From: Chiloscyllium plagiosum
Taxonomy: Eukaryota
Length of the DNA stretch: 64,000 nt
Reading direction: 5' to 3'
NCBI RefSeq assembly: GCF_004010195.1
Contig: NC_057719.1
Span: forward strand, 38,558,401-38,622,400
Below the pieces are notes generated by a model, which made no database searches, was not told where the DNA came from, and saw only the letters and a list, made by a program, of their open reading frames with translations. Below are positions 7,891-64,000 of the stretch, in pieces (positions within the stretch are counted from its first letter, which is position 1; every line of letters starts with the position of its first letter). The translations under genes and the position numbers were made by a program.

Positions 7891-8010
7891 TGGAGAAAGG
7901 GTGAACAGCAGAGGCTGGAGAGTCAGTCACTGGAAAAAGCACAGCAGGTCAGGCAGCATCACAGGAGCAGGAGAGTCGACATTTTGTGCAGGACCCTTCA
8001 TTAGGGCTGG
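7891..8010 (-). mobile_element. PLE pLTR fragment with degenerate hammerhead motif
   Basis: Minus strand reads cctaatgaagggtcctgcacaaaatgtcgac followed by the pLTR body. Confidence 0.65.
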
Positions 8011-8030
8011 CAGGTGATCTTATTGAGACA

Positions 8031-8438
8031 AAAAAAAACTGCAGATGCTGAATCCAAGGTAGACAACAGGAGGCTGGGAGAACACAGCAAGCCGGGAGAA
8101 CACAGCAAGCCAGGCAGCATTGAAACATGGAGAAGTCAACATTTCGGGTTTAACCCTTCTTCAAGACTGGAGCTGGGTGTAAGGGGAGCCACAGATAAAG
8201 GGAGTGAGAGCGGGTTGGTGAGGCAGGGTAGGTGCAGATAGACGGAGGGTACGAACTGGTTGGTCGATGGGAGGGATGAATCCAGTAGGTGACTAGAAGG
8301 GGAAGGGGAAGGGGAAGTTATTTGAAATTGGAGAACTCAAAATATTGAGTCCTGCATGCTGTAGGCTGCCCAAGCGAAGGATGAGGTGTTGTTCCTCTGT
8401 TTTGCAGTTAGATTTGTTTGGCAATGGAGGCGGCCAAG
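8031..8438 (-). mobile_element. PLE 3' end (endonuclease C-terminus + pLTR) with 18-bp TSD
   Basis: Flanks ggtgatcttattgagaca (8013-8030) and ggtaatcttattaagaca (8439-8456). Hammerhead-like ttgaagaa-gggt-taa-accc-gaaatgtt. Similar to 45620-45750. Confidence 0.7.
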
Positions 8439-8584
8439 GGTAATCTTATTAAGACATGCAATATTCTTAGGGGATGAACAGATTGATTAGAGGGAAAACA
8501 AAACACTTGGTCAGAACAGGTTCAAAGTCCCTTGCTCCTTCTTGATAAATAAAATGGCAGCTTTTACATCATTCCGAACAGGCA

Positions 8585-8883
8585 TGATTTGGAGATGCTG
8601 GTGTTGGACAAGGGTATACAAAGTTAAAAATCACAACACCAGGTTATAGTCCAACAGGTTTAATTGGAAGCACACTAACTATCATGGTATTCAAACAGAT
8701 GAAAGACTCAACAGACAATCAAGGTATTTTTCAATGTATAATTTCAGTTACACCACACTTTAAATTTTTGCTATAAATTCTGTGCCTTAGGATTGAGTGC
8801 TCCACTATCACCTGATGGAGCATCGCTCCGAAAGCTAGTGTGCTGCCAATTAAACCTGTTGGACTATAACCTGGTATTGTATG
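8585..8883. mobile_element. Fold-back PLE mini-element with 14-bp TSD
   Basis: Inverted arms ~8628-8677 and ~8836-8886; TSD attccgaacaggca (8571-8584) / attccgatcaggca (8884-8897). Confidence 0.8.
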
Positions 8884-9404
8884 ATTCCGATCAGGCAGAT
8901 ATCCTCTTGTATCATCTTTCTGTAAACTGCATCCTCTGCCAGTGTATGCGCGCCCTCAAGCAAGACATGATTTGATGTGACTAGCCTATAGAATTAAAAA
9001 GAGCAAATACTCCCAAAGTATTCCAACAATATATTCGCATATAAAACAGTAATTGCTGCTCCTGGAATTCGAAGAAATTGACTCCAACATCTAAACTAAC
9101 AAAAAAAAACAGCAGCTCTTACAGCCACAATTTTTTTCCCGTCCTCCATTTTGGATTACCCAAAATCCATCTCGTTAGTTAGACAAGACATAGAACAATT
9201 TAGTGTTCTGGAGCAAGTGAGACTTGAACCCAGGCTTCCCTATCTAGAGTAGGGGCTTTACCACTGTACCCCAAAAGGGCCTAATTGTTTTGTTTTGACC
9301 ATCTCACTAAAATGGAAAATTGATCATTTACCTAATGTTAATTTGAAGGACATTGTGTACAAACTGGGTGTTATGTTTGCCCACATGACAAGAGTGACTG
9401 GGTA

Positions 9405-9997
9405 AGAGTCTATGGAGTTGGGAGGTCATGTTGCGGCTGTACAGGACATTGGTTTGGCCACTTCTAGAATATTACGTGCAATTCTCATGTCCTTCCTATG
9501 TGAAACTTGAAAGGGCTCAGAAAAGGATTTACAAGGACGTTGCCACGGTTGGAGGATTTGAACTATAGGGAGAGGATGAAAAGGCTGGGGCTGTTTTCCC
9601 TGGAGCGTCAGAAGCTGACGAGTGACCTTATAGAGGTTTATAAAATCATGAGGGCATGGATAGGATTAATAGACAAGGTCTTTCCCTGGGGTGTGGGAGT
9701 CCAGAACTAGAGGGTATAGGTTTAGGGTAATAGGGGAAAGATTTAAAAAGAGACTGAAGGAGCAACTTTTTCACACAGGGGATAGTGTGTTTATGGAACG
9801 AGCTGCCAGAGGAAGTGGTGGAGGCTGGTACAACTACAGCATTTAAAAGACACCTGGAGAGGTATAGGAGTAGGAATGGTTTAGAGGGATATGGGCCAAG
9901 TGGGACAAGATTAGGTTAGGATATCTGGTTGGCATGGATGAGTTGGACTGAAGGGTCTGTTTCCATGCTGTACATCTCAATGATTCTATGACTCTAA
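9405..9997 (+). mobile_element. CR1 LINE (HER1-like) 3' end
   Basis: ORF 9507..9710 LEDLNYRERMKRLGLFSLERQKL; tail gattctatgactcta. Confidence 0.9.
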
Positions 9998-10951: not shown

Positions 10952-11983
10952 AAGTTTGGGTGAAGATTTGTAGCTCGGGTGCTCGTTGTTGTGGTTCTGT
11001 TCGCCGAACTGGAAATTTTTGTTGCAAACGTTTCGTCCCCTGTCTAGGTGACAGCGTCAGTGCTTGGGAGCCTCCTGTGAAGCGCTTCTGTGGTGTTTCC
11101 TCCGGCATTTATAGTGGCCTGTCCCTGCTGTTTCCGGTTGTCAGTTTCAGCTGTCCGCTGTAGTGGCCGGTATATTGGGTCCAGGTCGATGTGTTTGTTG
11201 ATGGACTACATTCGTTTTGCTCATGTTGGGTATCGGGTCCTTCGTTCTGGTGAGTTGTTGTCTGAGCGTGGCTGTTGGTTTGTGTGCCGTTATGAGTCCT
11301 AGGGGTCGCAATAGTCTGGCTGCCAGTTCTGAGATGTTCCTGATGTATGGTAGTGTGGCTAGTCCTTTTGGTTGTGGTATGTCCTCGTTCCGTGGTCTTT
11401 CTCTTAGGCATCTGTTGTTGAAGTTGCGCGGGTATCCGTTTTTGGTGAATACCTTGTATAGGTGTTCCTCTTCTTCTTTTTTCAGTTCTGGTGTACTGCA
11501 GTGTGTTGTGGCCCTTTTGAATAGTGTCCTGATGCAGCTTCGTTTGTGTGTGTTGGGGTGGTTACTTTCATAGTTCAGGACTTGGTCTGTGTGTGTGGCT
11601 TTCCTGTATAGCTTTGTGGTGAATTCTCCGTTCGGTGTTCTCTGTACCATCACGTCTAGGAATGGGAGTTGGTTATCCTTTTCTTCTTCTCTCGTGAATC
11701 GGATTCCTGTTAGTGTGGCTAGCCACACTACCATACATCAGGAGCATGGCACTCATCCACAAACTCCATCAACAAACACATCGACCTGGACCCAATATAC
11801 CGGCCACTACAGCAGACAGCTGAAACTGACAACCGGAAGCGGCAGGAACAGGCCACTATAAATGCCGGAGGAAACACCACAGAAGCGCTTCACAGGAGGC
11901 TCCCAAGCACTGAGGATGTCACCTCGACAGGGGACGAAACGTTTGCAACAAAAATTTCCAGCTCGGCGAACAGAACCACAACA
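10952..11983 (-). mobile_element. Penelope-like element: RT fragment between inverted pLTRs, 13-bp TSD
   Basis: ORF 11147..11734 (GIRFTREEEKDNQLPFLDVMV...YRKATHTDQVLNYESNHP...KNGYP...LPYI) is PLE RT. Inverted arms ~10986-11207 and ~11755-11983. TSD gctaacggaatta (10939-10951) / gctaatggaatta (11984-11996). Confidence 0.92.
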
Positions 11984-13144: not shown

Positions 13145-13813
13145 TGTAAGGCTATCATTTGCGTAAATTTGGATTTTCAAGTGGAGGTATCTGTAAAGAT
13201 CAACTTTTTTTTTAAATACAAATTTCAAGAAAGCACGTGATTTAACAATGTCTCTATCAGATACCGGGGAGGTTACATGCTGGATGTTCACAATGCTAAG
13301 TCTTATGAGCAACACAGAAACAGATGATCAGAGACCAGAATCCGTTTCAGTTCAGAAGAGCAATTTCATATTAAAAAGGGCCAGTTAGTTTGCTGAAAAT
13401 CTCCAGTGTTTTTAGTAAGTAGAACTCTTCACATGAGAACTAAATGTCAGTCCAGGTTGTTTGGATGGAAAATATATCTCTAGACCTTCAAAACTGGAAT
13501 GAGTCTGTTCAGTCAGAGTTCTTAAGATAGGAGTGATTTGCCACGGAGACTGTATAGTATAAATATTTTAAACTAGGTGCTTGCAAAAGGGTTCTATTGT
13601 TGTTTTGCTTTGAATGTTAAGAACTTCTTAAATTTACATATACAGAGTGTTCTTTTTGTGGAATAAACTTGAATTCTTTTGTTAAAGAGAACACTGGCAG
13701 CCTTGTGTGATTATGTTCAGCAACCAAAGTGCAAAAATTACACTTATCTGTCAAACCAGGTTTCATTCCAGGATCTAACTTGTTCAATACTACCATCAGC
13801 TGGGGTCATAACA
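13145..13813 (+). mobile_element. Probable degraded solo LTR
   Basis: Ends gtcataaca like the other LTRs here; AATAAA near 13662. The 5' end (tgtaagg) and TSD (cttt/tttt) are imperfect, so the start is uncertain. Confidence 0.45.
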
Positions 13814-15896: not shown

Positions 15897-18800
15897 AGAG
15901 AGTCATAGATACAGAGATGTACAGCATGGAAACAGACCCTTCGTTCCAACCTGTCCATGCTGATCAGATATCCCAACTCAATGTAGTCCCGCCTGCCAGC
16001 TCCCAACCCATATCCCTCCAAACCCTTCCTATTCATATACCTATCCAAATGCCTCTTAAAATGTTGCAATTGTACTAGCCTCCACCATTTTCACTGGCAG
16101 GTCAATCCACACACGCACCACCCTTGTGAGAAAAAGTTGCCCCTTCGATCACTTTTATATCTCTCCCCTCTCACCCTAAATCTATGCTCTCTAGTTCTGG
16201 ACTCCCCAACCCCATGGAAAAGACCTTCTCTGTTTACCCTATCCATGTCACTCATGATTTTATAAACCTCGAGAAGGTCACCCCTCAGCCTCCGACACTC
16301 CAGGGAAAAGAGTCCTACCTATTCAACCTCTCCCTATAGCTCAAATCCTCCAACCCTGGCAACATCCTTGTAAATCTTTTCTGAACTCTTTCAAATTTCA
16401 TAACATCCTTCCGATAGGAAGGAGACCAGAACTGCACGCAATATTCCAACAGTGGCCTAACCAATGTCCTGTACAGCTGCAACATGACTTCCCAACTCCT
16501 GTACTCAATACTCTGACCAATAAAGGAAAATACACCAAACACCTTCTTCACTATCCTGTCTACCTGAGACTCTACTTTCAAGGAGCTATGAACCTGCACT
16601 CCAAGGTCTCTTTGTTCAGCATCACTCCCTAGGACCTTACCATTAAGTGTACAAGTCCTGCTAAGATTTGCTCTCCCAAAATGCAGCACCTCGCATTTAT
16701 CTAAATTAACCTCCCTCCATCTGCCACTTCTCAGCCATTTGACTCATCTGATCAAGATCCCATTGTAATCTGAGGCAACCTTCTTCGCTATCCACTACAT
16801 CTCCAATTTTGGTGTCATCTGCAAACTTACAAACTATACCTCTTATGCTCACATCCAAATCATTTTTACAAATAACAAAAAGTAGTGGACCCAGCATCGA
16901 TCCTAGTGGCACCCCACTGGTCACAGGCCTCCAGTCTGAAAAACAACCCTCCACTACCACCCTCTGTCCTCTATCTTTGAGCCAGTTCTGTACCCAAATG
17001 ACTAGTTCTCCCTCTATTCCATGAGACCTAACCTTGCTAACCAGTCTCCGAGGGGGAACCTTGTCAAACAGATCACGTCAAACAGATCACATCTACCACT
17101 CTGCCTTCATTAATCTTCTTAGTTAACTCTTCAAAAAAAAAATCAAGTTGGTGAGACATGATTTCCCACGCACAAAGCTTTGTTGACTATCCCTAATCAG
17201 TCCTTGCCTTTCCAAATACATATACATCCTGTCCCTCAACAACGCGCCCACAACCGTCAGGCTCACTGGTCTTTAGTTCTCTGGCTTGTCCTTACCACCT
17301 TTCTTAAATACCTCCATACCTGCCAACCTCCAGTCTTCCGGCACTTCACCTGTGACTATCAATGTTGCAAGTACCTCAGCAAGGGGCCCAGCAATCACTT
17401 TCCTAGCTTCCTACAAAGATCTAGGGTACACCTGATCAGGTCCTGGGGATTTATCCACTTTTATGCATTTCAAGACATCCAGCACTTCCTCCTCCGTAAT
17501 TTGTATATTTTTCAAGATGTCACTATTTCCCTACATTCTATATCTTCCATGTTTTGGATGCAAGTTTGCTCACTGAGCTGGGAGGTTCGTTTTCAGACGT
17601 TTCGTCACCGTAGTAGGTAATATCATCAGTGAGCCTTCGAATGAAGCTGTGGTGGTGTAACCCACTTTCTATTTATATGTTTGGAGGTTCCTTGGGTTGG
17701 TGATGTCATTTCCTGTGGTGACATCATTTATGGTGATGTCATTTCATGTTCATGAACAGTAAATTGCATCATAGAAAATGCAGGAAGTACAGTTGTTCGC
17801 GGGTGGAACTCTCTCGGATGGCATTCCTTTCCCATCTTCGGGCAAGTTGTAGCGTGTTGCGCCCATAGGTTTTTGCAAGGTTTGTAGCTCAGGGTATAGG
17901 TTTGCTCGCTGAGCTGTAGGTTTGATATCCAGACATTTCATTACCTGGCTAGGTAACATCATCAGCGTCTACAGAAAACCAACAAATACTGACCAAATAC
18001 TTAACTACAGCAGCAACCATCCCAATACACACAAAGCTGTATCAAAACACTATTCCAACGAGCCACCACACACTGCAGCACAGACGAACTTCGGAAAACA
18101 GAGGAGAACCACCTATACAACGTATTCAAGAAGAATGGATACTTTAAAAAAATACAGTATGCAGATTCCTCACGAACAAACCACAACAAGCAGACCAAAC
18201 ACAGCCAGAAACCCTAACCACCTTACCATACATCAAAGTTGTTTCAGAAATGACAGCCAGACTACTAAGACACCTCGGAATCCTAGTAGCACACAAACCC
18301 ACCAACACTCTCAAACAAAAACTAACAAAAAGACCCAGTACAACCCATGGACAAAACCAACGTTATCTACAAAATTCCATGCAAGGACTGCCACAAACAC
18401 TATGTAGGACAAACAGGAAGAAAGTTAGCCACCAGGATACACGAACACCAGCTAGCCACAAAAAGACACGACCCTCTCTCCCTCGTAGCCCGACACACGG
18501 ATGAAAAAGAACCACCATTGTGACTGGGACAACACATCTATCCTGGAACAGGCTAAGCAAAGACATGCCAGAGAATTCCTAGAGGCCTGACACTCCAACC
18601 ACAACGCCATAAACAAACACAGATCTAGATACCATCTATCAACCCAGGAAATGACTTCACCACAAACCCCAGGAACCCCATCCAAGAGAAAGATATAAAT
18701 AGAAAGCAGGAGACAACAGCTTCGCTTCACTTGGAAGTCGCCATTGTTGTTGTTACCTAGCCAGGTAATGAAACATCTGGATATCAAACCTACAGCTCAG

Positions 18801-19195
18801 CGAGCAAACCTACACCCTAAATGTTACCTAGTATGGTGACGAAACGTCTGTAAACAAACTTTTCAGCTCAGTGAGCAAACCTATATCCAGAACCTCAACC
18901 TGAGCTACAAATCTTAAAATTCGCAATCTTCCATGTTCTTTTCCATCGTAAACATTGATACAAAATACTCATTTAGTACATTCCCCATCTCCTGCAGCGT
19001 GACACAAAGGCTACCTTGTTGATCTTTGAGGGGCCCTATTCTCTCCCTAATTACCCCTTTTGTTCTTAATGTATTTGTAAAAACCCTTTGGATTCTCTTT
19101 CACTATTTGTCAAAGCTATCTCATATCCCCTTTTTGCCCTCCGTATTTCCCTCTTAAGTATACTCCTACTGCCTTTATACTCTAAGGATTCAGTT
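15897..19195 (-). mobile_element. CR1 LINE (HER1-like) with RT domain, interrupted by a PLE at 17554-18925
   Basis: ORFs 16706..16960 (VTSGVPLGSMLGPLLF...KFADDTK) and 16315..16689 (LVRPLLEYCVQFWSP); 3' tail at ~15897; CR1 sequence resumes after 18937. Confidence 0.92.
17554..18925 (+). mobile_element. Composite Penelope-like insertion (RT C-terminus, GIY-YIG endonuclease, four pLTR pieces) with 12-bp TSD
   Basis: Perfect TSD atcttccatgtt at 17542-17553 and 18926-18937. Frames read VYRKPTNTDQIL..., LPYI, and NVIYKIPCKDCHKHYVGQTGRKLATRIHEH (GIY-YIG, ~18358-18450). Confidence 0.9.
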
Positions 19196-22981: not shown

Positions 22982-23406
22982 AGGTAAAAACAATGACTGC
23001 AGATGCTGGAAACCAGATTCTGGATTAGTGGTGTTGGAAGAACATAGCAGTTCAGGCAGCATCCGAGGAGCAGTAAAATCGACGTTTCGGGCAAAAGTCC
23101 TTCATCAGGAATACAGGCAGAGAGCCTGAAGGAGAGATAAGTGAGAGGAGAGTGGGGGTGGGGAGAAAGTAGCAAGGATGCCTGCCTTGAAGAAGTTTTC
23201 CTCCTCTCCCTACAAGAGTCTCAGGGAGTCCCTCTCCCACTGCAACTCCCAGGTCATTTACTCTATGCTCCCCACCCCCACCCTCCTCTCACTTATCTCT
23301 CCACCCTTCAGGCTCTCTGCCTGTATTCCTGATGAAGGGCTTTTGCCCGAAACGTCGATTTTACTGCTCTTCGGATGCTGCCTGAACTGCTGTGCTCTTC
23401 CAGCAC
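22982..23406. mobile_element. Fold-back PLE remnant with two hammerhead motifs
   Basis: Inverted arms ~23030-23174 and ~23256-23406; ctgatga-a-gggc-tttt-gccc-gaaacgtc at ~23329-23356. Confidence 0.85.
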
Positions 23407-23851: not shown

Positions 23852-24229
23852 CAGATGCATTTTAAATGTTGCAATTGTATTAGCCTTTACCACTTCCTCT
23901 GGCAGCTCATTCCATACACATACTACCCTCTGAGTGAAGAAGTTGCCCTTAGTTCTCTTTTATATCTTTCCCCTCTCATCTTAAACTTATGCTCTCTAGT
24001 TCTGGACTCCCCCACACCAGGGGAAAAGACCTTGTCTATTTATCCTATCCATTCCTCTCATGATTTTATAAACCTCTATAAGGTCACCCCTCAGCCTCTG
24101 ATGCTCCAGGGAAAACAGCCCAGCCTATTCAACCTCTCTCTATAGCTCAAATCCTCCAACCCTGGCAACATCCTTGTAAATCTTTTCTGAATCCTTTCAA
24201 ATTTCACAACATCCTTCCATTAGGAAGGA
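23852..24229 (-). mobile_element. CR1 fragment truncated at both ends, lying inside the ERV
   Basis: Near-identical to 120-490 and 34767-35140; lacks the 3' tail. Confidence 0.85.
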
Positions 24230-24898
24230 CTGCAGTAATGAGCTTCATGGTAAAATGGGTCCCCCTGTCTGTTTCTATGTTCCCTGGGATTCCAAATCTT
24301 GAAATAACATCCAACAGAAGACACTTTACCATGTTTGGGCGTTATCGTTTTGGTGGGAAATGCCTCAATCCATTTTAAAAACATGTCTACAATAACTAGG
24401 ACATATTTGTATACCTGTTTCTGAGTCATGTGGGCAAAATCAGTCTGGAGGTGGGTGAATGGGCCCCTCAGGAACTGGTACATGGTCGTATTTGACCACA
24501 GGCTTCCTTGCATTGTTCTGTAGACACTGTGGAGGCACTGTGACGGCAGGGCTTGGGCAACTGCAGTGAATCCCGGTGCACACCAGGAACGGCTGACAAC
24601 ATGTATCATGCCTCTCTTGCCTGTGTGTCTGATTCCGTGTGCCACCAGGACCAGTAAGTGCAGATGGGCTTTTGGGCAGATGATACAACCATCAGGGTGG
24701 ATAAGCGCCTGTAGGGAGGGTGACTGTATGGCCCCAAGACGTCCTCTGTTCTGATGGGGCAGCTTGCTGAGCTGCTCGGACTACATTGAGAGGGTCAGGG
24801 GACTCCGGAGGTTTTGTCACACTGGAGGGATATGCATGACATTAGTGACCGGGTGTAGTGCAGCTTCCCGGGCTGCTGCATCAGCTGAGTCATTTCCT
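24230..24898 (-). pseudogene. pol: Endogenous retrovirus pol fragment (RNase H C-terminus + integrase N-terminus/core), class I (gamma/epsilon-like)
   Basis: Frameshifted translation: GNDSADAAAREAAL (RNase H end), HPDGCIICPK...AHGIRHTGKRGM (HH), C..CLQNN (CC), GPFTHLQTDF, YKYVLVIVDMFLKWIEAFPT, DVISRFGIPGNIETDRGTHFT (first two catalytic Asp). Confidence 0.88.
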
Positions 24899-25321
24899 GG
24901 GGGGCGTGGACCTGACCAGGTAGTCACGGAGGGAACGGTCTTTGCGGAAGGTGGAAAGGGGTGGGGAAGGAAATATATCCCTGGTGGTGGGGTCTGTTTG
25001 GAGGTGACGGAATTGTCAGTGGATGATTTTGTTTATGCGAAAGTTGGTAGGGTGGAAGGTGAGCACCAGGGGTGTTCTGTCCTTGTTACGGTTGGAGGGG
25101 TGGGGCCTGAGGGCGGAGGTGCGGGATGTGGACGAGATGCGTTGGAGGGCATCTTTAACCACGTGGGAAGGGAAATTGCGTTTTCTAAAGGAGGCGGCCA
25201 TCTGGTGTGTTCAGTGGTGGAACTGGTCCTCCTGGGTTACACCTCTTCCAACCCTACCTCCTGCAAAAATGCCATCCCGTATTCCCAATTCCTCCGCCTC
25301 CGCCGTATCTGCTCCCAGGAG
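24897..25321 (-). mobile_element. PLE RT C-terminal fragment with an internal inversion
   Basis: Minus frame MAASFRKRNFPSHVVKDALQRIS...DRTPLVLTFHP; plus frame YTSSNPTSCKNAIPYSQFLRLRRICSQE (25237-25321). Confidence 0.8.
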
Positions 25322-25639
25322 CAGCTGATTCAAGGATGAAGGAGGTTATTGGAGTTTAGAAGAATGAGGAGTGATTGCACTGAAATATTTAATTCAGAGG
25401 CAGTTTGACAGGGTAGATACTTAAAGGATGTTTCTCCTTATGGGAGAATCTAGAATTGGGGGCACAGTTACAAAATAAGGGGTGCCCCACTTAAGACAGA
25501 GTGGAGGAGCCGCCTGAGGGTTGTCAGACCTTGAAATTCTCTTTAACACAGTGGAGAATGAGTCATCGAATATATTCAATGCTGATTAGCACTGATCACA
25601 GCCTTCCTGTGTACAGAAATCAGTCCTCCTCACTGTTGA

Positions 25640-29259: not shown

Positions 29260-29357
29260 GAGAAAGTGAGGACTGCAGATTCCTGAAGAAGGGCTCATGC
29301 CCAAAACGTCGATTCGCCTAGTCCTTGGATGCAGCCTGACCTGCTGTGCTTTTCCTG
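29260..29357 (+). mobile_element. 98-bp PLE mini-insertion with perfect 16-bp TSD
   Basis: ctccactacattcaaa at 29244-29259 and 29358-29373. Content is a 20-nt inverted tail plus a hammerhead-starting pLTR. Confidence 0.85.
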
Positions 29358-29790: not shown

Positions 29791-29921
29791 GAGAAAGTGA
29801 GGACTGCAGGTGCTGGAGTTCAGAGTCAAGAGTGTGATGCTGGAAAAGCACAGCAGGTTAGGCAGCAGAGGAGCAGGAGAATCGACGTTTCGGGCATAAG
29901 CCCTTCATCAGGAATGAATGA
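29791..29921 (-). mobile_element. PLE pLTR mini-insertion with intact hammerhead core, ~15-bp TSD
   Basis: TSD atttttaataacctg (29776-29790) / atttttagtaacttg (29922-29936); minus strand ctgatga-a-gggc-ttat-gccc-gaaacgtc. Confidence 0.8.
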
Positions 29922-34621: not shown

Positions 34622-35256
34622 TGGAGTTATAGAGATATGCAGCACGGAAACAGGCCCTTCAGTCCAACTCGTCCATGCTAACCAGATATCCCAACACAAT
34701 CTAGTCCTACCTGCCAGCACCTGGCCCATATCTCCCTCCAAACCCTTCCCATTCATATGTACCAATCCAGATGCCTTTTAAATGCTGCAATTGTACTAGC
34801 CTCCACCACTTCCTCTGGCAGCTCATTCCGTACACGTACCACCCTCTGCGTGAAGTTACTGCCCCTTAGGTCTCCTTTATATCTTTCCCCTCTCACCCTA
34901 AACCTATGCCCTCTAGTTCTGGACTCTCCCACCCCAGGGAAAAGGCTTTGTCTATTTATCCTATCCATGTCCCTCATGATTTTATAAACCTCTATAAACC
35001 TCTTCAGCCTCCGACGCTCCAGGAAAAACAACCCCAACCTATTCAACCTCTCCCTATAGTTCAAATCCTCCAACCTTGGCAACATTCTTGTAAATCTTTT
35101 CTGAACCCTTTCAAGTTTTACAACATCTTTCCAATAGGAAGGAGACCAGAACTGCATGTAATATTCCAACAGTGGCTAAACCAATGTCCTGTACAGCCGC
35201 AACATGACCTCCCAACTCATGTACTCAATACTCTGACCAATAAAGGAAAGCATACC
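34622..35256 (-). mobile_element. CR1 LINE (HER1-like) 3' end
   Basis: ORF 34753..35169 EYYMQFWSP...LERVQKRFTRMLP...LPEEVV...FKRHLD. Confidence 0.92.
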
Positions 35257-37400: not shown

Positions 37401-39410
37401 TAGAGAGTCAGAGATGTACAGCATGGAAACAGACCCTTCGGTCCAACCCGTCCATGCCAACCAGATATCCCAACCCAATCTAGCCCCACCTGCCAGCACC
37501 TGGCCCATTTCCCTCCAAACCCTTCCTATTCATATACCCGTCCAAATGCCTTTTAAATTTTGCATTTATACTAGCCTTCCCCACTTCCTCTGGTAGCTCA
37601 TTCCATACATGTACCATCCTCTGCATGAAAACTTTGCACCTTCGGTCTCTTTTATATCTTTCCCCTCTCACCCTAAGCCCATGCCCTCTACTTCTGGATT
37701 CCCAGGGAAAAGACCTCGTCTATTTATCCTATTCATGCCTGTGGTGTAAAATTATGTCCCAATACATGTGTGAATCATAATGTAACACATGTATTGGGCC
37801 AAGCAGTGGAATGTGGTGAAACGGTTAAAAATTATGTCCCAATACATGTGTGAATCTAACCGGAATGGAGGTGTTGCTTAGTCCCGTGTGAATCTTATTA
37901 CACACCTCCCCGTGTGAATCTTCTTATCTGTATGTAACCAGAATGGAATGTGTTTTTTAGCCTTGCTCTGCTGTTCACATGAATGTTTATATCTGGAAAA
38001 GAGTATATCAGCTGGAAAAGTCTCCAGTTCGGTGAGTCTGCTCCGGGGTTACGTTTAACCGCCGAGCGTGGGTTGTTGGCAGCCGCTCTACGAGAACTGA
38101 CGGCTCCCAGTTCCGGTAACATGTAGAGTGAGTATAAGCCAGACCCGTTGTAAGTATGAGACCTGGTTGTGGCGACGCTGCGGGGAATAAAATGCTCATA
38201 TTCTAGCAGACTCGCCTCTTGGTCGTTTGTTCTGTGTCAGACTACTCTCCTACGAACCTGACCTTGAGAATTTTTTAAAACAATGCCCCACATGATTTTA
38301 TAAACCTCTATAAGGTCACACCTCAGCCTCTGATGCTCCAGGGAAAACAACCCCAGCTTGTTCAATCTCTCCCTATAGCTCAAATCTTCCAACCTTGGCA
38401 ACATCCTTGTGAAACTTGAAAGGGTTCAGAAAAGATTTACAACATCCTTCTGATAGGAAGGAGACCAGAATTGCATGCAATATTCCAACAGTGGCCTAAC
38501 AGCCTCAACATGACGTCCCAACTCCTGTACTCAATACTCTGACCAATAAAAGAAAGCATACCAAATGCCTTCTTCACTATCCTATCTACCTGCGACTCCA
38601 CTTTCAAGGAGCTATAAACCTGCACTCCAAGATCTCTTTGTTCAGCACCATTCTCCAGGACCTTACCATTAAGTGTAGAAGTCCTGCTAAAATTTGCTTT
38701 CCCAAAATGCAGCACTTTGCATTTATCTAAATTAAACTTCATCTGCCACTTCTCAGCCCATTAACCCATCTGATCAAGTTCCCATTGTGATCTGAGGTAA
38801 CCCTCTTCGCTGTCCACTACACCTCCAATTTTGGTGTCATCTGCAAACTTACTAACCATACCTCTTATACTCACATCCAAATCATATATATATAAATGAT
38901 GAAAAGTAGTGGACCCAGCACCGATCCTTGTGGCACTCCATCTGCAAACTTACTAACCATACCTCTTATACTCACATCCAAATCATATATATATAAATGA
39001 TGAAAAGTAGTGGACCCAGCACCGATCCTTGTGGCACTCCACTGTCACTCACAGGCCTCCAGTTTGAAAAACAACCCTCCACCACCATCCTCTGTCTTCT
39101 ACCTTTGAGCCAGTTCTGTACCCAAATGCCTAGTTCTCCCTGCAATTCATGAGATCTAACCTTGCTAACCAGCCTCCCATGGGGAATCTGGTCAACCACT
39201 TTACTGAAGTCCGCATAGAGTATGTCCACCGTTCTGCCCTCAATCCTCTTTGTTACTTTTTCAAAAAACTCAATCAAGTTTGTGAGACATGATTTTCCAC
39301 ACACAAAGCCATGTTGACAATCCTTAATCAGTCCTTGCTTTTCCAAATACATGTACATCCTGTCCCTCAGCACCCTTCTTAAACAGTGGCACCACTATTC
39401 TAGCCTGGTG
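37401..39410 (-). mobile_element. CR1 LINE (HER1-like) with RT, interrupted by a solo LTR and a 101-bp tandem duplication
   Basis: ORFs 38972..39373 (QHGFVCGKSCLTNL...SGVPQGSVLGPLLF) and 38437..38742. Confidence 0.92.
37740..38282 (+). mobile_element. Young solo LTR, 543 bp, 5-bp TSD
   Basis: TGT...ACA termini; TSD atgcc at 37735-37739 and 38283-38287; TATAA at 38133-38137; AATAAA at 38186-38191; retains many CpGs. Confidence 0.9.
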
Positions 39411-44143: not shown

Positions 44144-44240
44144 GTAAAATCAGAAATTGCTGGAAAAGCTCAGTAGGTCTGGTTGCACAGTTGAGAGAAA
44201 TCAGAGTTAACATTTTGGGTCCAGTGACCCTTCCTCAGAA
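44144..44240 (-). mobile_element. PLE pLTR fragment inserted in a CR1
   Basis: Minus strand ctgagga-a-gggtc-actg-gaccc-aaaatgtt; CR1 sequence on both sides. Confidence 0.7.
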
Positions 44241-44289
44241 CCCCAGTTTGGCCAGACTCTCCTCATAGTTAATACCCTCTAAACACATG

Positions 44290-44984: not shown

Positions 44985-46055
44985 CTTCGCCTACATTGTA
45001 TCTGTTCAGATGACACTACCTTCCAGAACAGCACTGCTGGCATGCTTCTTTCTTCCATAACCGTAGTTTCCCCGTCCACTGTGGTTGACAGGACCCTCAA
45101 GTGTATCCAATCGATTACACGTGCTTCCACTCTCGCCCCTTCCTATCACTCAACAGCGTGATCTAATTCCCTTCCTCACTTTTCATCCCAACAGCCTCCA
45201 CATTCAAAAGGATCATTCTCCACCATTTCAGACGACGCCAGCAGAACGCTATCATCAAACACACCTTCCCCTCACTGCCCCGTCTGCATTTCGCAGAGAT
45301 CACTCCCTGCAGGTGGTTCATTCTACCACCCCTTCCCATGGCATCTTCCCACATAAATCACAGAAGGTGCAACATCTGCCCCTTCATCACCTCCCTGCTC
45401 ACCATCTATGGGTCTAAACAATCTTTCCAGGTGAAGCAGCATTTCACCTGTACCTCCTCCAATCTTGTGTATTCAGTGCACCCAATGTGGCCTATGCTAC
45501 ATTGGAGAAATCAAATGCAGACTGCGTGACTGCTTTGCAGAACACCTTCAGTCCTTACACAAGGATGACCCCAACCTTCACATAGCCGGTCATTTTAACA
45601 CAGCATCCTGCTCGCATGCCCACTTGTCTGTCCTCAGCATACTGCAATGCTCCAGTGAATCACCGCAAACTGCAGGAACAACATCTCTTCTTCGGACTAG
45701 GCACTTTTGACAAGCTTTTGGATTTAATATTGAGTTCAACACCTTCAAATTGTGAACCCACTCCCTTTGTTTTAGCTTTACTTGTTACATTCTGTTACCA
45801 TACCCTCTCTTCTTTCTCCCAAACCCCAGTGGGACTGCCTGTTCTTTCCGTCTAGCAGTTAGACACACTGTTCTGCCATTTTCAGATTCCAATCACTTAA
45901 TCCAAACTAGCAATCTTCTTAACCTCCCTCCATTGCATATACACTGCACACTTAACGTCAGCTTTGATGAAAAATCATCTAGACTCTAAACGTTAGCTTG
46001 CTTTTTCTCCATGGATGCTGCCTGACCCGCTGAGAGCTCCAGCATTTTGTTTTCA
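44985..46055 (+). mobile_element. Degraded PLE 3' portion (RT C-terminus, GIY-YIG, pLTR)
   Basis: ORFs give LTFHPNSL, RRCNICPF...FQVKQHFTCTSSNLVY and CTQCGLCYIGEIKCRLRDCFAEH; degenerate hammerhead at ~45963-45995. Confidence 0.8.
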
Positions 46056-48187: not shown

Positions 48188-48323
48188 CTTCATTCCTGAT
48201 GAAGGACTTTTGCCCAAAACCTTAATTTTTCCTGCTCTTCATGCCGCCTGACCTGCTGTACTTTTCCAGCACCACTCTAATCTTGACACTAATCTCCAGC
48301 ATCTGTAGTACCCACTTCCAACT
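48188..48323 (+). mobile_element. PLE pLTR mini-insertion with perfect 11-bp TSD inside a CR1 (~47850-48820)
   Basis: atatccatgag at 48177-48187 and 48324-48334; the insertion starts cttcat-tcctgatgaagg. Confidence 0.8.
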
Positions 48324-51644: not shown

Positions 51645-52351
51645 TGGCTAGGCCCATCTCTAATTGCCCAGAGGATAATTAAGAGTCAACCACATTGCTG
51701 TGGGTCTGGAGTCACATGTAAGCCAGACCATAGGATGGAAGTCTCCTTCCTTAAAGGCAGCAGTGAACCAAATGAGAGCTTCATACAATCGGCAATGAAT
51801 TCATATAGTCATCATTAGACACTCAATTCCAGATTTTACTGAACTCAAATTCCATTATCTGCTATGGTGGAATTCAAACCTGGTCCCGAGAACATGACCT
51901 TGGTCTCTGCCTGATGAAGGACTTTTGCCCAAAACATCCATTTTCCTGCTCCTCAAATGCTGTCTGACCTGCTGTGCTTTTCCAGCACCACTTTAATCTT
52001 GACTCGGAATTAAAAGTCCAACAATAACACCACTAAGCCCAAAGTAGGAGCAAATTACTGCAGATGCTGGAATCTGTACAGAAAACAAAAAATACTGGAG
52101 ATCACAGTGGGTCAGGCAGCATCCATGGAGAGAAATTCTCATATTCTGATCTCTTCATCTGAACATCCTTTCTCCTCCAGCATTCCAACACCCTCCCCAC
52201 TACTGCATGAATGCTGTCCCCTTAACTCTTCATAAGAGCTGAAGTGTTATCTCGACTCAAATGCTAGCTTGCATTCTCTCCATAAATGCTGCCTGACCCG
52301 CTGTGATCTCTAGCATTTTTTGTTTTTAATACCACTAGGTCGTTACCTCCC
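51645..52351 (-). mobile_element. tRNA-derived SINE interrupted by two PLE insertions (51910-52005 and fold-back 52041-52327)
   Basis: Minus-strand tRNA-like head (A-box ...cctagtggtatt, B-box ggtttgaattcc); approximate duplication aacaccactaag / aataccactagg around the fold-back. Confidence 0.65.
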
Positions 52352-53620: not shown

Positions 53621-53627
53621 TTTTATT

Positions 53628-54347
53628 TGTTATGGACTAGGCCAGACCACTCAAAACATTCTTAAGCAAAAGTTAAAAATCACAACACCAGGTTATAGTC
53701 CAACAGGTTTAATTGGAAGCACACTAGCTTTTGTAGCTTCATCAGGAGCGACGGTCAGAAAGCTTAGTGTGCTTCCAATTAAACCTGTTGGACTATAACC
53801 TGGTGTTGTGTGATTTTTTAACTTTGTACACCTCAGTCCAACACCAGCATCTCCAAATCATTCTTAAGCAGGCAACCTAGACCACAACTTGGCAATTTGT
53901 TTCAATAAGTGTATGGTGAAAATTATCCAGAGTAAGATAACTAGGTTGACTACTAGATTTTAAAAGAGACTAAAGTGTTTTCACAAAATTACACAATAAA
54001 ACACAAAGAACCCCTACAGAACTCAACCTATCCAACTAAACTAGGAGAGATGCCACACACCTCACTGTTGAACGCCCAACCAGTTCAGGACTGAATTAAG
54101 CTGCTCAGCTAAAGAGCTAACCACTCCCCTTTCATTATATAGGTCACTTCTAAAACATGACCACTTTGGCGTAAAGCGTCATCTGTTTACATATCAACAA
54201 AGGCCTCAAAGTCCTTTTCATTTTTGGACCAAACTAGACTGATGGGAGCCCGGCCTGGTTTATTACCCCTCTGGGAAAAAAAAAATCAAGAGCGGTGTAT
54301 CCTTCAGCCAAGAAACAGCGTCTGGAAAAAGGACTAACTTTGTGACA
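53628..54347. mobile_element. Solo LTR (related to 20593-21242) containing a fold-back PLE
   Basis: Termini tgttatgg...ttgtgaca; perfect 4-bp TSD tatt (53624-53627, 54348-54351). Confidence 0.82.
53669..53858. mobile_element. Fold-back PLE mini-element (same family as 8585-8883), 12-bp TSD
   Basis: Arms ~53669-53731 and ~53759-53825; TSD cattcttaagca (53657-53668, 53859-53870). Confidence 0.85.
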
Positions 54348-54677: not shown

Positions 54678-54885
54678 TACAAAAACAGTGTTGCAGATGT
54701 AGGAAATTGGGATGAGAAAAGAATAGTGGGAAAATTAGTAGATGTGGCTGTATCTGTGGAGAGAAAAACATAACTACATTTGAGATTTGTCTCTGATGAA
54801 AGGTCAGTGCTGAAATGCTCACTTTGTTTCTCTCCACAGTTGCTAACAGGCCTGCTGAGGCATTCCAACATTGTCTGCTTTAATT
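54678..54885. mobile_element. Old fold-back PLE remnant
   Basis: Inverted ctgtggagagaaa / tttctctccacag around ctgatgaaaggtcagtgctgaaatg. Confidence 0.55.
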
Positions 54886-58729: not shown

Positions 58730-61420
58730 TTTTATTCATGACATGTGCACATTGTTTGCTGGGTCATCACTTATTGTTCATTCCTAGATGCCACTGAGGT
58801 GGTGGTGGTGGTGATGATGAATTGCCTTCTTGAATCACTGCAGTCTATTTGGAGTAAGTAGACCCACAATATTGTCAGGAAGGGAATTTAAGGATTTTGA
58901 CACCAACACTTAAGGAACAGAACGTACTTCTGAATCAGGAAGATGAGTGGCTTAGAATGGGAACTTACAGGTGATGGAGTTTCCATGTATATGCTGCCTA
59001 TGTCCTTTTAAATCGGTAATAGTTGTTCGCATGGAAAGTGCATCCTATAAAGAGTGCACACTACTGTGACTGAGTGATACTGGTAGAGGGGGTGAATCTT
59101 TGGGATGAGGTGCCATTCAAACTTTGTCCTGGATGATATGAGCTTAGATTATAGTTGGAACTGCATTCATCCAGGCAAGTGGGGAGCACTCCCTCACATT
59201 CTGATTTGTTCCTTGTAGATGGCAGACAGGCTGAGAGTCAGATGGTAAGTTACTTGCTAGCTTTTGACTAGTTCTTATAGCCACAGTACTTATATTGCTA
59301 TTGATAATATGATGCATTGAAATGTTATGGAGCAATGGTTAGATTCTCTCATGTTAGATTGAGCATGTCAAAAGTGACTTATCAGTCCAGATCTTATTGC
59401 ATTTGGACACAGGATGCTTCAGTATCTGAAATCATTAAGTGGTGCTGAACATTGAGCAAACATCCCTCACTCTAATGTTACGATGGAAGAAAGGTCACTG
59501 ATGAAGCAGCTGAAGAGGATGGTTTCCAGGATACTGCAGAAACATCAACAGTGCCATATAGGGCTCTTGTGGTCCAGTGGTCATGTCCCTACCTCTGCAC
59601 CAGGAGGCCCAAGTTCAAGTCCCTCCTGTTTCAAGAGGCATGTAATAACATCTCTGAACAGTTGATTAGAATACATCAACCCTGAGGAGTTCATGCAGAG
59701 ATGACTTGCAGCAAAGTTGACTGATCTTTAACAATCCCATAACTATCTTCATTTGTGCCAGGCGTGGCTCCCACCACCAATCCCCATTGACCTCAGTTTT
59801 ACTACAGTTCCTCGATACCATATGTTATGAAGGTGGAGAAGCGTACTTTACCTTTAAGAGAATTAAAAGCTTGCTGAACTACCTGACAGCATCAAGTGTT
59901 CTGAACAAGATACATTGTCACCTGTTAATCCAGCAGCTGTAGTAGCTGGTTGCCTGGAGACAAAAACAAATTTGAATTAGGCCAGTTTAAATTATACCCT
60001 AAAAAAAACAAATTCAATCAAGTTTGAATTTAGTATACTGACAATCTGATGCTTTGGAGGCATAGGACCAGGAAAACCTCAACAGCTGAGGAGAACTGCC
60101 GAAGACCAACAGAAGTAGGCTGCTAGGCAGAACTCTGAGAGGTACCTGTCTAGAGAAGGAGTTTGCACAGAGTAAAAACATCAACACTGACCTGGAGAGA
60201 AAATCTACAGAGAAAGATATAAAAGAGAAGATTTGACAGCTGGCAGATTTTCAAATTTGGATTTTTCTGTAAATCTTAATCGTGGGTTTTATCAGACTAG
60301 TATTATAGAAGAGCAAGTAAAAGATAGGTTGGAGAATGTAAATAGTTGGAGTTGTAAATAGTTGTTAGTTAATTATTCACTGTTATAGTTTAAGAAATAA
60401 AGTTGTTAATTTTTACTTTAATTAGTTCTTGGCCTCTTGAATTTTCACAGATTACTGCACGGGATAAATCTTTTCTGTGTTGCTGGTTTAAATTAAGCAG
60501 ATGGATTTATCCCATGTCATAACGCATATTTGGTCAAATGCTGCCTTGATGTTAACAGCAGTTGCTCTCATCTCATCTCTAGATTTCAGCTCTTTTCTCC
60601 AAGTTTGAACCAAGCCTATGAGGTCAGAATCTGAGTGGCCCTGGTGGAACCAAAACAGAACATCAGTTGGCAGATTTGCTTTACTAGGACTGCAGTGAGG
60701 ACTGCAGATGCTGGAGTTGAGAGTCGAGAATGTGGTGCTGGAAAAGCACAACAGGTCAGGCAGCATCTGAGAAGCAAGAGCATCGACATTTCAGGTAAAA
60801 GCCCTTCACAAATAATGAGGTTTTGTTTTACTGCTGATCGAGTGTAGAGTGTTGGGCAGTAATTGGTTGGGTTGCATTTGTCCTGCTTTTCACATAGCAA
60901 TTGTCAGGTAGATGCCAGTAATATGGCTGTAGTGGGGTAGCTTGACTAGGGGTACGGCAAGTTGTGGAGTACATACTTTCAGTACGATTGCTGATATGTT
61001 GGCATGACCCATAGCATTTACAGCATCCAGTACCAGCCATTTCCTAATATCATATGGAGTGAATCAAATTGGCTGGCGACGAGCATGTGATTCTGGAGAC
61101 CTCTGGAGGAGGCAGAGGACAGATCTCCTACTTGGCATTTCTGGTCAAAAATTGCTACAAATTCTTCAGCCTCACCATTTGCACTGATGTACTGGGCTCT
61201 CCTATCATTGAAAGGTGGATATCTGGGAATCTCCTTCTCCAGCAAGTTAAATTATCCACTATAATTCACGACTGAGTTTTGCAGGGCCACAGAGCTTAGA
61301 TCTGATCTGTGGGTTGTGGAATTACTGAGCTCTATCACTTGCTGCTTGTGTTGTTTGTACGCAAGTAGTTCTGATTTGCAGCTTCACCAAATTGACACCT
61401 TTTTAGGTGTGCCTGGTGCT
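58730..61420 (-). mobile_element. Old L2/CR1-clade LINE hosting a SINE (59560), a solo LTR (59823) and a PLE pLTR (60690-60812)
   Basis: ORF remnants VRECSPLAWMNA, AVNIKAAFD and KQDKCNPTNYCP. Confidence 0.65.
59823..60524 (+). mobile_element. Solo LTR (Gypsy-like), 702 bp
   Basis: Termini tgttatga...tcataacg (last base mutated); perfect TSD cata (59819-59822, 60525-60528); AATAAA near 60396. Confidence 0.82.
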
Positions 61421-63820
61421 TGTACGTACAAAGTATTCTGTGCCAGCACAGAAACTTCCATGTAATGAAAGCCAGCCCTGTTCAGCTAGGAGAAAACAAA
61501 ATAATGAGCTTCTTTTTCTTAAAAATATGCAGAACTGACGCTTGTTACAGGTTGCAACTTGCCACAGTTTACTTCAAAACAAAATTGATGTGCCTCCACA
61601 TATTGAACAGTGTTCTTTAAATTTCTGTAACAATTTAGAGCTGTAGCCACATCATAGGAATAGTTTTCCAAATCCATAACCAGTGAGGAACTATCCCTGT
61701 AAGCAATATAAACCATGTCAGTCATGACTTCCATCTGAATTTCCCACTTGCACTGCCAGCATCCACCATCAGAGATGAATGTCTAGGTTAAAACACCTAG
61801 ACTTAAAAAGTTTATTATAAAGACAGTTTTCACATTGTAGCCTATTAGTGTAATGTATAATTCCAGTCAATCATCCAAATAGCACACTTTCAGCTTTAGC
61901 ATAAACAGCCCGGATATTTCCAGGATTGGCAATCACATTGGTCAAACCATGCTCCCTTTCACAGTAGTTATTTGTTGCATTCTGAAAATCAAATAACCAG
62001 CAGCACAGTGACTCTGACAACTGCTGAGAGGCTAAGCATGTAAGCCAAGTGGGACAGGTGTCAGGTGGTTAGGATGTCTGGCCAGTGATGAAGTACTCAG
62101 GGTGTGGATGTCAGATCAAGACTTCTGGTCAATCCAAATGAACATGGGTCAGCTCTAGAATGGACTTAATTTGGTCCTCAGATCTGTAAGCACTCCTACG
62201 ACGCTTTTTCTAAATGCAATTTGTCTCATGCTCTCAAACATTGAAAACTTGAATACAACATACTGTAAACTGAAAAATATACAGGCTATTAAGTATTGAA
62301 TGAATAATGTTCAGCATTTTAAATAGAAATTATTAGCAAGCATACCCAAGCAGTAATATCACATTAAGTGGAAAAGAACATTAAATTAGGCATAAAACAG
62401 AAAGTACTGGAATACTTCAGTAAGTTTAGTGCCATCTGCTGAGAGAACAGAGTTAAGATTGAGCCAAATAGGATTCTTCTGAACTAAATGCAGGTGGAAA
62501 TGTGGGGCTGGGAGAATGAAGGAGCTGGGAATGAAGGGAAGCTATGGGATGGATTAGAGTGCATAAAGATTAAATGACAATGTTGTGGAACAAAAGGCAA
62601 AAAGAGTGGTCATGGTTGTAGTAAAGAAACAAAATGCAAATGTGAATGGCGGAATAGAACATCTCTACCCAAAAGCAAATTTAAAAATGAAACACAGGAT
62701 TCAGACAAAAAAAAAATCAAAATGGGGAAGCGCTCATGCTCCACAACTGCTGAACTCAATGCTGAGTCTGGAAGGCTGTAAATTGCCTTAAGAGAAGATG
62801 GAGGTGCTATTTCTCAAGCTTGCTCAAGCTGCTTCATGACCTCAGTTTGAGAGGTCACAAGGTTACTAAAGGTCATGGGAAACCCCACTCATGCTTAAGT
62901 TTTAGGGCAAAGTAAACTTATAAGTTGGGCAAGCATTTTTAAAAATAAACTAACAGTTTTCTTAACCAGAACAAGACAAGAATCCTTCATACTTCAGAAT
63001 TTGTGTTGTGACAGTTTAACTGAAAATGGTTTTGTAATGTCCAACTGTTATAAGTAAACAACATATAAAAAAGTCAGTAATTTAGTCCCAAAGACCTAAC
63101 TACTATAAGAAAAATGACAAACTACCCTGTAATCCTTTATTCAGCACAAGACCAATCTCAACCACGTAGACAGTCAAATTGAGTTGTGAAGTGGATGTTG
63201 ATCATTTCATTTGAAAACTTACCAACAATTAACAAGTATTAATGAACGAACACCAATCCTCACCACTGACATAGGGCTTGCTCAGACTACTATATGTAAC
63301 ACTGATGAGAGCAAGAGCCCAAGATTTAAACAAGTTAAACGTGACCTTATAATCAATTATTGAAAGCTGCCATACACTAAACAGTTTAGTGCCCGAGGTT
63401 AGCTTTGGTAACAGTTAATCAAATCAAAATGAGCAACATAAAGTTATTATTTCATAGAATTTCCTTCATGTTAAATTGGCTAATTTAAAGTCATTTTGCT
63501 TAAATATGCCTTCTTCTTGATATGTTCAAAGCTGAATATAAAACTAATTCCATCTCTCAAATGATCACTTTTACCTTTGTTTTTCTTAACAAAAGGAAAA
63601 GAAAACTATGCACTCTTGAAACATCTTTTAGAAAAAGGAGTAAGCTTTAACAAGTTGGAAGAGGCTCCTGAATTTGTGAACTAAAACAGCACAGTCAATG
63701 TTATTTTGTCTGCATTCATAAATTCTAGCCCAAGTCACATCAGATTTGTTTGCGACCTAGTAAGCATAACCAATACGAATTGAGTGAAAGAGGAATAACT
63801 AAGACAGACAACAATAAAAT

Positions 63821-64000
63821 AGGTAAAAACAATGACTGCAGATGCTGGAAACCAGATTCTGGAGTAGTGATGCTGGAAAAGCATAGCAGTTCAGGCAGCA
63901 TCCGAGAAGCAGTAAAATCGACATTTTGGGCAAAAGCCCTTCATCAGGGCTGATGAAGGGCTTTTGCCCAAAACATCGATTTTACTGCTCCTCGGATGCT
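63821..64000. mobile_element. Head-to-head PLE pLTR palindrome (truncated by window end)
   Basis: Arms 63897-63947 and 63950-64000 separated by 2 nt (tcatcag-gg-ctgatga). Confidence 0.88.

What the first reader, a model, noticed from the sequence alone, without database searches (positions are those of the whole stretch)
7980..63985. Dense, multi-family set of minimal hammerhead ribozyme motifs with covarying stem II
Seen in sequence: about 20 motifs of the form CTGANGA-N-[stem II]-GAAA-[palindromic ACGT/AGCT]-H. Stem II differs between families yet still pairs: gggc-tttt-gccc (23329), gggc-ttat-gccc (29881, minus), gggc-tcat-gccc (29283), gggt-taa-accc (~8145, minus), gggtc-actg-gaccc (~44216, minus), aggtc-actg-gatct (~26416, minus), ggagc-atc-gctcc (~8817), gtcacct-cgac-aggggac (11918), gttacc-tagtat-ggtgac (~18823). 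Established: PLE pLTRs encode minimal type I hammerheads with a palindromic, loop-less stem III that are thought to act as dimers. Inference: at least five shark PLE families keep the fold, at roughly one motif per 3 kb. Most copies are damaged by CpG decay at CGAAA or ACGT.
Basis: partly seen in the sequence, partly recalled or inferred. Interest (0 to 1): 0.75.

Follow-up and report, generated by a model that had tools for sequence, protein, structure and literature searches.

The report
Shark Penelope stubs carrying minimal hammerheads
These motifs are real, mostly decayed end-pieces of at least eight Penelope-like jumping-gene families, each carrying the tiny predicted self-cutting RNA (minimal hammerhead) already known for this class; they occur about 220,000 times with an intact core in this likely carpet-shark genome, and the copies' ends suggest most were likely made from uncut RNA that starts right at the hammerhead.

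Summary
Observation confirmed. 23 copies span the hammerhead core in the window, 1 per 2.8 kb; all nine cited stems are there, but only 3 copies are fully intact. Genome-wide the intact-core patterns occur 220,079 times against 1,764 reversed controls. Each family traces to a Penelope-like (PLE) RT/GIY-YIG ORF, and one locus is a full pLTR-ORF-pLTR unit. This is the minimal hammerhead of Cervera and De la Pena 2014, in a host and at a copy number my searches did not find in print. Extra: in four Neptune-type families 5' ends pile up at the start of helix I, often after an extra G, which likely marks a capped transcript start copied without cleavage. A footprint at the cut site is unresolved; RNA reads show none. 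Cleavage is untested. The scan found this before: 770 notes in at least 36 genomes, including this one. New member of a known kind; interest 0.3.

The parts
7974..8008 (-). decayed A2-like minimal hammerhead, 5'-truncated stub
8134..8168 (-). family F minimal hammerhead (C3>T, CpG-decayed triplet), 4-bp helix I
8314..8439 (-). remnant of a PLE GIY-YIG C-terminus upstream of the family F motif
   Evidence: similar to longer F copies
8808..8842 (+). family E motif (AGCT palindrome), two core letters missing; inverted partial copy at about 8620-8683
11023..11064 (-). family B motif (one core change), end of the minus-strand copy that carries the PLE tail to about 10963
11207..11710 (-). family B (Poseidon-type) ORF remnant, RT thumb to start of the endonuclease
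11906..11947 (+). family B motif, intact; inverted partner of the 11060 copy; element ends at 11983
17592..17633 (-). family C1 motif, one helix II mismatch
17928..17969 (-). family C2 motif, CpG-decayed; inverted 5'-truncated copy next to the plus-strand element
17970..18650 (+). family C (Poseidon-type) ORF remnant with GIY-YIG domain
   Evidence: PF01541, E 4.4e-4, below the curated cut-off
18740..18781 (+). family C2 motif with decayed core, 3' end of the ORF-bearing copy
18821..18852 (+). family C1 motif cut at its 5' side (no CTGANGA)
23077..23112 (-). family A motif, one helix II mismatch; left arm of the 23031-23406 inverted pair
23325..23360 (+). family A motif, intact; its 31-letter core occurs 15,207 times exactly in the genome
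26404..26441 (-). family D motif, decayed stub starting at helix I
29279..29314 (+). family A2 stub starting at -4 after a G; GAAA decayed
29880..29915 (-). family A2 stub, intact motif
44205..44242 (-). family D stub, CpG-decayed
45067..45757 (+). broken Neptune-type ORF end (degenerate Cys linker, GIY-YIG) upstream of the family G motif
   Evidence: read by eye, no Pfam hit
45960..45998 (+). family G motif, decayed core, 4-bp helix I
48192..48227 (+). family A/A2 stub, decayed
51907..51942 (+). family A stub, decayed
52232..52326 (+). heavily decayed family G copy with an inverted partial partner at 52082-52134
53669..53861 (.). family E fold-back pair whose junction cuts through both motifs
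54789..54826 (+). decayed D-like motif
60694..60808 (-). family A2 stub truncated inside the core
63821..64000 (.). family A back-to-back inverted pair, motifs at 63947- and 63950+, both CpG-decayed

Best explanation
The motifs are dead genomic copies of the ends (pseudo-LTR region) of at least eight Penelope-like retrotransposon families, each master of which kept a minimal type I hammerhead fold that likely self-cleaves only slowly, with help from a second copy or the element's protein, and most short copies were likely reverse-transcribed from uncut RNA that begins at the hammerhead. Steps. SHOWN: each family's motif lies on the sense strand at the 3' end of a PLE ORF; helices I and II covary between families; copies end at two sites about 35-45 nt apart, 75-130 nt past the core (the PLE tail); about half of the short copies have an inverted neighbour; in families A, A2, D and E 5' ends crowd at the first letters of helix I; in family B the ORF's ATG and the upstream ORF's stop both lie inside the motif. 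INFERRED: the pLTR promoter starts a capped RNA at the first base of helix I; the PLE RT primes internally downstream of the motif (as shown in vitro for the anole element), reads through the uncut site and runs off the cap after 90-130 nt, adding one base opposite the cap; priming in the downstream repeat of a tandem gives the long copies. After insertion the copies decay neutrally, CpG first. UNTESTED: any cleavage, dimer formation, circles.
For: Full unit motif-ORF-motif 2.5 kb apart in L083, with RT (PF00078) and GIY-YIG. ORF links: A 31 of 89 copies have a same-strand PLE protein hit within 2.6 kb upstream, several at 660-840 nt (some of the 31 are artefacts of a motif inside the query); B 31 of 35 (many fetched by that protein); A2, E, F longest copies read GIY-YIG upstream; D one copy; C and G in the window. 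Covariation: helix I 27 of 32 Watson-Crick pairs across 8 family majorities, reached by 2 of 40,320 permutations; helix II 30 of 32, 8 of 40,320; on 16 real copies 78% of cells pair, 32 double changes, 0 of 500 shuffles, slid controls 22-51%. Two 3' ends: B at +74 and +112, A/A2 near +82-93 and +125-127, E +82-90 and +120-122 (loose ends). 5' starts in -9..0 among unbiased copies: A 17 of 46, A2 49 of 106, D 23 of 66, E 21 of 49 against 3-7 expected if uniform; non-inverted flanks unrelated in 119 of 124. Loose ends at exactly -4 in three runs (168 reads, 46 and 286 contigs) and an extra G at three listed joints to -4. In the first 100 of 5,232 A2 matches with a non-C letter at -5, I counted by hand 67 G, 20 A, 13 T at -5 against 33/33/34 at -6. 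PMC11167929: internal RT priming, tail, uncut RNA as main template, ATG inside the hammerhead.
Against: No cleavage or RNA 5'-end data. In my own smaller sample the G at -5 is not enriched (A2 9 of 42, A 3 of 21, D 3 of 14, E 0 of 14). Family F shows no 5' pile-up among unbiased copies (1 of 10) and B none. The uniform expectation is crude, local-alignment ends are fuzzy and the A2 and D upstream references are single copies. A, A2, D, F, G share downstream sequence, so the eight families are not independent and the permutation counts overstate significance. The most abundant families (A, A2) have a U.U mismatch in helix I, and 5 of 8 monomer folds pair the core with the GUC strand instead of forming helix I. 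The best-holding run may be the assembly's own source.
Confidence: 0.75

Rival explanations
1. Circle model: both hammerheads of a tandem cut, the unit-length RNA is ligated into a circle, and RT copies round the circle; copies span the cut site because it was re-joined.
For: Proposed in PMC4209133. Paired same-strand motifs flank the ORF in L083. Copies starting exactly at the predicted cut: 4 of 22 family A starts in +8..+60; 160 genome matches against 45 one base later; one joint lands on the first base after the cut (table 5c).
Against: A circle has no 5' end, so it does not explain starts crowding at -4 with an extra G. A2, D and F show 0 starts at the cut of 49, 51 and 13. The 160 rows mostly carry three recurring flank triplets, which points to insertion variants or inverted junctions, and the 90 matches one base earlier look like small deletions; the loci were not classified. 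No RNA end pile-up or circular joint in the raw-read run.
Confidence: 0.2
2. The fold is kept for something other than cutting in the abundant families, such as overlap with the transcription initiator, the start codon or an RT-binding hairpin, and A/A2 are catalytically weak or dead.
For: A/A2 helix I is 2 bp, U.U, 1 bp yet they supply 127 of 222 core-spanning copies in the unbiased sample. Helix I's 5' strand coincides with the inferred start; in B the ATG lies in the core. Hammerhead mutants did not reduce anole PLE insertion in vitro (PMC11167929).
Against: All catalytic positions, the G10.1-C11.1 pair, the palindrome (ACGT or AGCT) and an NUH triplet are kept in all families, and helix I 3' strands change in step with 5' strands, which a promoter alone would not require.
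Confidence: 0.25
3. The short copies are an independent non-autonomous family (non-LTR retrozymes or SINE-like units) that spreads from other stubs.
For: Many stubs share both ends (-4 to about +125), and a head-to-tail joint of that 130-nt unit exists. Retrozymes derived from PLE pLTRs are reported, also in one chondrichthyan (bioRxiv 10.64898/2026.07.22.740005).
Against: No tandem array of the motif in the window. Stubs start downstream of the TATA-like box seen in long copies, so they likely lack a promoter; the same sequence continues into ORF-bearing copies.
Confidence: 0.1
4. Chance motif amplified with a repeat, no RNA structure.
For: High counts come from repeat amplification, not from independent origins; one look-alike on the antisense strand of a CR1-type LINE did pass my loose filter.
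Against: Same core, extra base, G-C pair and palindrome in eight families from two PLE clades with compensatory helices; matches the published consensus (PMC4209133).
Confidence: 0.02

Closest known systems
[quoted passage not shown]
   Same: Type I core, no helix III loop, palindromic 15.2-16.2, one extra base between 9 and 10.1, G10.1-C11.1, short helix I, several consensus families per genome, mostly single truncated copies, some on opposite strands close together, few full elements.
   Different: No shark is named in the parts read or in supplement file 2. Copy number 220,079 intact cores here against about 4,000 (coelacanth) and 9,000 (Xenopus tropicalis), with different descriptors. 5'-end pile-up at helix I is not described in the parts read.
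Poseidon_Ac (PAc) of the green anole, Frangieh et al. 2024 (PMC11167929; read parts 1-2 of 4, main text to start of methods)
   Same: ORF starts inside the hammerhead; two RT start sites leaving a 30-40 bp tail about 110 nt into the ORF; no RNA-seq read ends at the cut site. Family B matches: ATG at core +6, ends at +74 and +112.
   Different: In family B the upstream ORF's stop codon also lies in loop II. No biochemical test here.
EN+ PLE clades Penelope/Poseidon and Neptune/Nematis (PMC8557442; passages only)
   Same: RT plus C-terminal GIY-YIG, partial tandems, adjacent inverted truncated copy, tail. B and C lack the Cys linker; F and G show it.
   Different: Clade calls rest on the linker and by-eye similarity; no tree was built; linker not read for A, A2, D, E.
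Animal non-LTR retrozymes (bioRxiv 10.64898/2026.07.22.740005; read part 1 of 5 and passages)
   Same: Short non-coding units with a type I hammerhead related to PLE pLTRs.
   Different: Defined by tandem arrays with a hammerhead in each unit; the window has dispersed single or inverted stubs, no array.

Membership tests
PLE minimal hammerhead | Core CUGANGA, GAAA and NUH triplet | tested here: met
   All 8 family majorities; C1 majority of 5 copies is CpG-decayed at one triplet-side letter
PLE minimal hammerhead | One extra base between positions 9 and 10.1; G10.1-C11.1 pair | tested here: met
   8 of 8 majorities; 13 of 16 real copies G-C, the 2 failures being misaligned E rows
PLE minimal hammerhead | No helix III loop; palindromic 15.2-16.2 | tested here: met
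   ACGT in seven families, AGCT in E
PLE minimal hammerhead | Short helix I and helix II with compensatory changes between families | tested here: met
   families are related, so not a phylogeny-corrected test
PLE minimal hammerhead | Located in PLE pLTRs | tested here: met
   L083 unit; ORF links for all 8 families
PLE minimal hammerhead | Self-cleavage, as dimer or with protein | not testable with these tools
   No RNA end pile-up at the cut in one poly(A) single-cell run, which is weak; genomic footprint unresolved
EN+ Penelope-like element | Single ORF with RT and C-terminal GIY-YIG | tested here: met
   B: PF00078 on L083 and L082 ORFs, GIY-YIG PF01541 weak on family C; no intact ORF found, L083 is broken once
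EN+ Penelope-like element | Partial tandem forming pLTRs, adjacent inverted truncated copy, 30-40 bp tail | tested here: met
Penelope/Poseidon clade (B, C) | No CX2-5CxxC linker before the endonuclease; RT tree placement | tested here: inconclusive
   Linker absent in B and C translations; tree not built
Neptune or Nematis clade (A, A2, D, E, F, G) | CX2-5CxxC linker; RT tree placement | tested here: inconclusive
   Linker read in F and degenerate in G; not read for A, A2, D, E; tree not built
Canonical type I hammerhead (Rfam models) | Helix III stem-loop and loop I-II tertiary contacts; Rfam match | tested here: not met
   No hammerhead family among 13 Rfam matches at E up to 5; no helix III loop
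Non-LTR retrozyme | Tandem array with a hammerhead in each unit | tested here: not met
   None of 14 tandem-repeat rows in the window; one head-to-tail joint elsewhere

The most novel reading that the evidence does not exclude
In shark Neptune-type PLEs the hammerhead is the capped first 32-35 nucleotides of the transcript, its helix I doubling as the initiator, and hundreds of thousands of 90-130-bp stubs are RT run-off products that record the cap as an extra G; cleavage would then act as a decapping switch on the element's own RNA rather than as a way to cut unit-length copies out of a longer precursor.
Probability: 0.45. Interest if true: 0.55.

Novelty: new member of a known kind. Interest (0 to 1): 0.3.

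Why it matters
As a class it is known. What this genome adds is scale and a natural experiment: about 220,000 intact cores and, by extrapolation from 222 copies in 1.05 Mb, roughly 0.7 million remnants, from eight or more families whose helix I ranges from 4 good pairs to 2 pairs plus a U.U mismatch in the most successful families. The role of PLE hammerheads is an open question (PMC8557442 calls it unclear; PMC11167929 found cleavage dispensable in vitro). If the stubs record a capped start at helix I, they fix where PLE RNA begins and show that uncut RNA is the usual template in vivo. Practically, genome-wide ribozyme searches and repeat annotation in sharks should treat these as PLE ends.

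Tried and rejected
Rfam scan: no hammerhead; the miRNA hits are the inverted pairs at 23031-23406 and 63897-64000. A loose descriptor with 2 core mismatches gave many chance hits. A tenth 'family I' was dropped: it is the antisense strand of a CR1-type LINE (17 of 122 fragments; label from window ORFs and recall). Hits to residues 50-98 of the L099 query come from a motif inserted in that query and were disregarded. Families C2 and H had under 4 intact copies and were left out of the permutation test. In alignment A1 the two E rows are shifted by one column and several copies lack element sequence upstream; they were kept, which lowers the counts. Long 'open frames' were mostly assembly gaps; no intact family A element was recovered. 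Sequencing runs: no RNA holder listed on record; run X21 laid 0 reads; in X20 the read-end cluster at L083:6931 is where that copy is truncated, not a cut; 69-91% of laid reads run on into unlike sequence, so they mostly come from host transcripts that contain stubs. X20 depth on the B element is higher for one orientation in 29 of 30 bins, likely sense, one sample only. Cut-site truncation test inconclusive. Upstream context of family E beyond the endonuclease was not obtained (one search returned no loci). Literature: no held paper on shark PLE hammerheads or on a start at helix I in searches; the library lacks most subscription papers, and supplements of the bioRxiv preprint and file 1 of PMC4209133 were not seen and may list a shark.

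Full report
Observation. Seeding BLAST with one copy per family lists the window's copies; alignment to family references gives 23 copies spanning the core and 27 fragments. A strict descriptor scores 13 in the window against a mean of 0.9, maximum 5, in 200 dinucleotide shuffles. Only three copies are intact (11910+, 23329+, 29911-); most others show CpG decay at CGAAA or ACGT. Rfam does not see these motifs.

Scale. One 31-letter family A core occurs 15,207 times exactly, control 0. CTGANGA-N10-22-GAAACGTH occurs 168,250 times (control 1,502) and the AGCT form 51,829 times (control 262), together 220,079, one per 16 kb. These patterns do not demand helix II and include a few chance hits. In 108 arbitrarily placed 10-kb stretches of the large contigs, 222 copies span the core in 1,048,492 non-N bases (A2 86, A 41, E 39, D 33, C1 9, F 6, B 5, G 3), which extrapolates to roughly 0.7 million. 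Cervera and De la Pena give about 4,000 for coelacanth and 9,000 for Xenopus tropicalis with a stricter descriptor (PMC4209133).

Structure. Majority letters of eight families keep the core, the extra base after position 9, G10.1-C11.1, a palindrome and an NUH triplet. On 16 real copies 78% of cells pair with 32 double changes; 0 of 500 shuffles reach this and slid controls give 22-51%. The families are related, so these are not phylogeny-corrected. A and A2 have a U.U mismatch at the third pair of helix I. Single-strand folding forms helix II (whole or in part) in 7 of 8 copies but helix III cannot form, and in 5 of 8 the core pairs with the triplet strand, in line with an inactive monomer.

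What carries it. Window 17970-18650+ and 11207-11710- are PLE ORF remnants upstream of families C and B; 8314-8439- and 45067-45757+ are endonuclease ends upstream of F and G. Elsewhere in the genome A, A2, D, E and F copies extend upstream into RT or GIY-YIG coding sequence. L083 is a complete motif-ORF-motif unit of 2.5 kb: an ATG inside the upstream motif opens 195 codons before a break, the rest reads 658 residues with RT (PF00078, E 8e-7) and ends at a TAG in loop II of the downstream motif. Nearest named relatives of that protein are from Chiloscyllium punctatum (87-89%) and Stegostoma (60%), so the host is likely a carpet shark. B and C lack the Cys linker (Poseidon type); F and G have it (Neptune or Nematis type; definition from PMC8557442). 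Inverted pairs (10987-11983, 17891-18818, 23031-23406, 53669-53825, 63897-64000) and two preferred 3' ends per family are the published PLE insertion anatomy (PMC8557442; PMC11167929).

5' ends. I had seen upstream conservation fall away about 5 letters before the core; reading this as a capped start came from earlier notes of this scan, which I then tested. Among unbiased copies, starts in -9..0 are A 17 of 46, A2 49 of 106, D 23 of 66, E 21 of 49, against 3-7 expected if uniform; F 1 of 10 and B show no pile-up. Flanks of non-inverted copies are unrelated in 119 of 124, so this is not a second subfamily. Laid reads and contigs break at exactly -4 in three runs, with an extra G at three listed joints. 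TATA-like words lie 30-45 letters upstream in long copies (read by eye). In the first 100 of 5,232 A2 matches my hand count gives 67 G at -5 against 33 at -6, but my smaller alignment sample shows no G excess (A2 9 of 42, A 3 of 21, D 3 of 14, E 0 of 14). The cap reading is therefore likely, not shown.

Cleavage. Most copies run through the predicted cut, so their template was uncut or re-joined. Starts exactly at the cut: A 4 of 22, E 2 of 32, A2 0 of 49, D 0 of 51, F 0 of 13. Genome counts of 160 at the cut, 45 one later and 90 one earlier are confounded by recurring flanks and were not resolved. The one raw RNA run that laid shows no ends at the cut, as in the anole (PMC11167929).

Verdict. 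It is the known PLE minimal hammerhead in a new host at very high copy number; six searches of the held library found no paper on sharks. The scan itself has reported it many times (770 notes, at least 36 genomes, two listed from this genome; none near this window). New member of a known kind, interest 0.3; the capped-start reading would merit about 0.55 if confirmed.

Noticed in passing
L083:4416-4429 and 6925-6931 (minus); window 11910-11930: In family B the hammerhead is coding twice over: the ORF's ATG lies in the core and the previous ORF's TAG lies in loop II; the TAG is also present in most C1 and C2 copies.
   Followed up: partly
one search hit list for P0005: After shark proteins, the closest named relatives of the family B ORF are from tapeworms and flukes (43-55% identity). 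May reflect old host-parasite transfer or only which genomes leave PLE ORFs annotated; no tree built.
   Followed up: no
window 83-813, 9414-9995, 15899-17241, 34625-35256, 37399-39372: Many 80-87% identical fragments of a LINE with RT (PF00078 at 38975-39394), CR1-type by recall; its antisense strand can mimic the hammerhead core.
   Followed up: partly
window 24223-24780 (minus): Broken integrase-like fragment (PF00665, E 0.001, below cut-off), LTR retrotransposon or endogenous retrovirus remnant; described only.
   Followed up: no
window 24755-25336: Another Neptune-type RT/thumb remnant with an internal inversion, no motif beside it.
   Followed up: no
window 7618-7853 and 9168-9398: An 83% identical inverted pair, SINE-like by recall, brackets the cluster of A2, F and E stubs at 7900-8890.
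   Followed up: no
L002, L088, L090, L091, L095-L100: Assembly gaps fall repeatedly in the pyrimidine-rich 3' part of family A elements, so full-length A elements and their copy number are under-represented.
   Followed up: partly
listing: A recurring 7-8-letter deletion by microhomology removes GAAA and the triplet from some family A copies.
   Followed up: no
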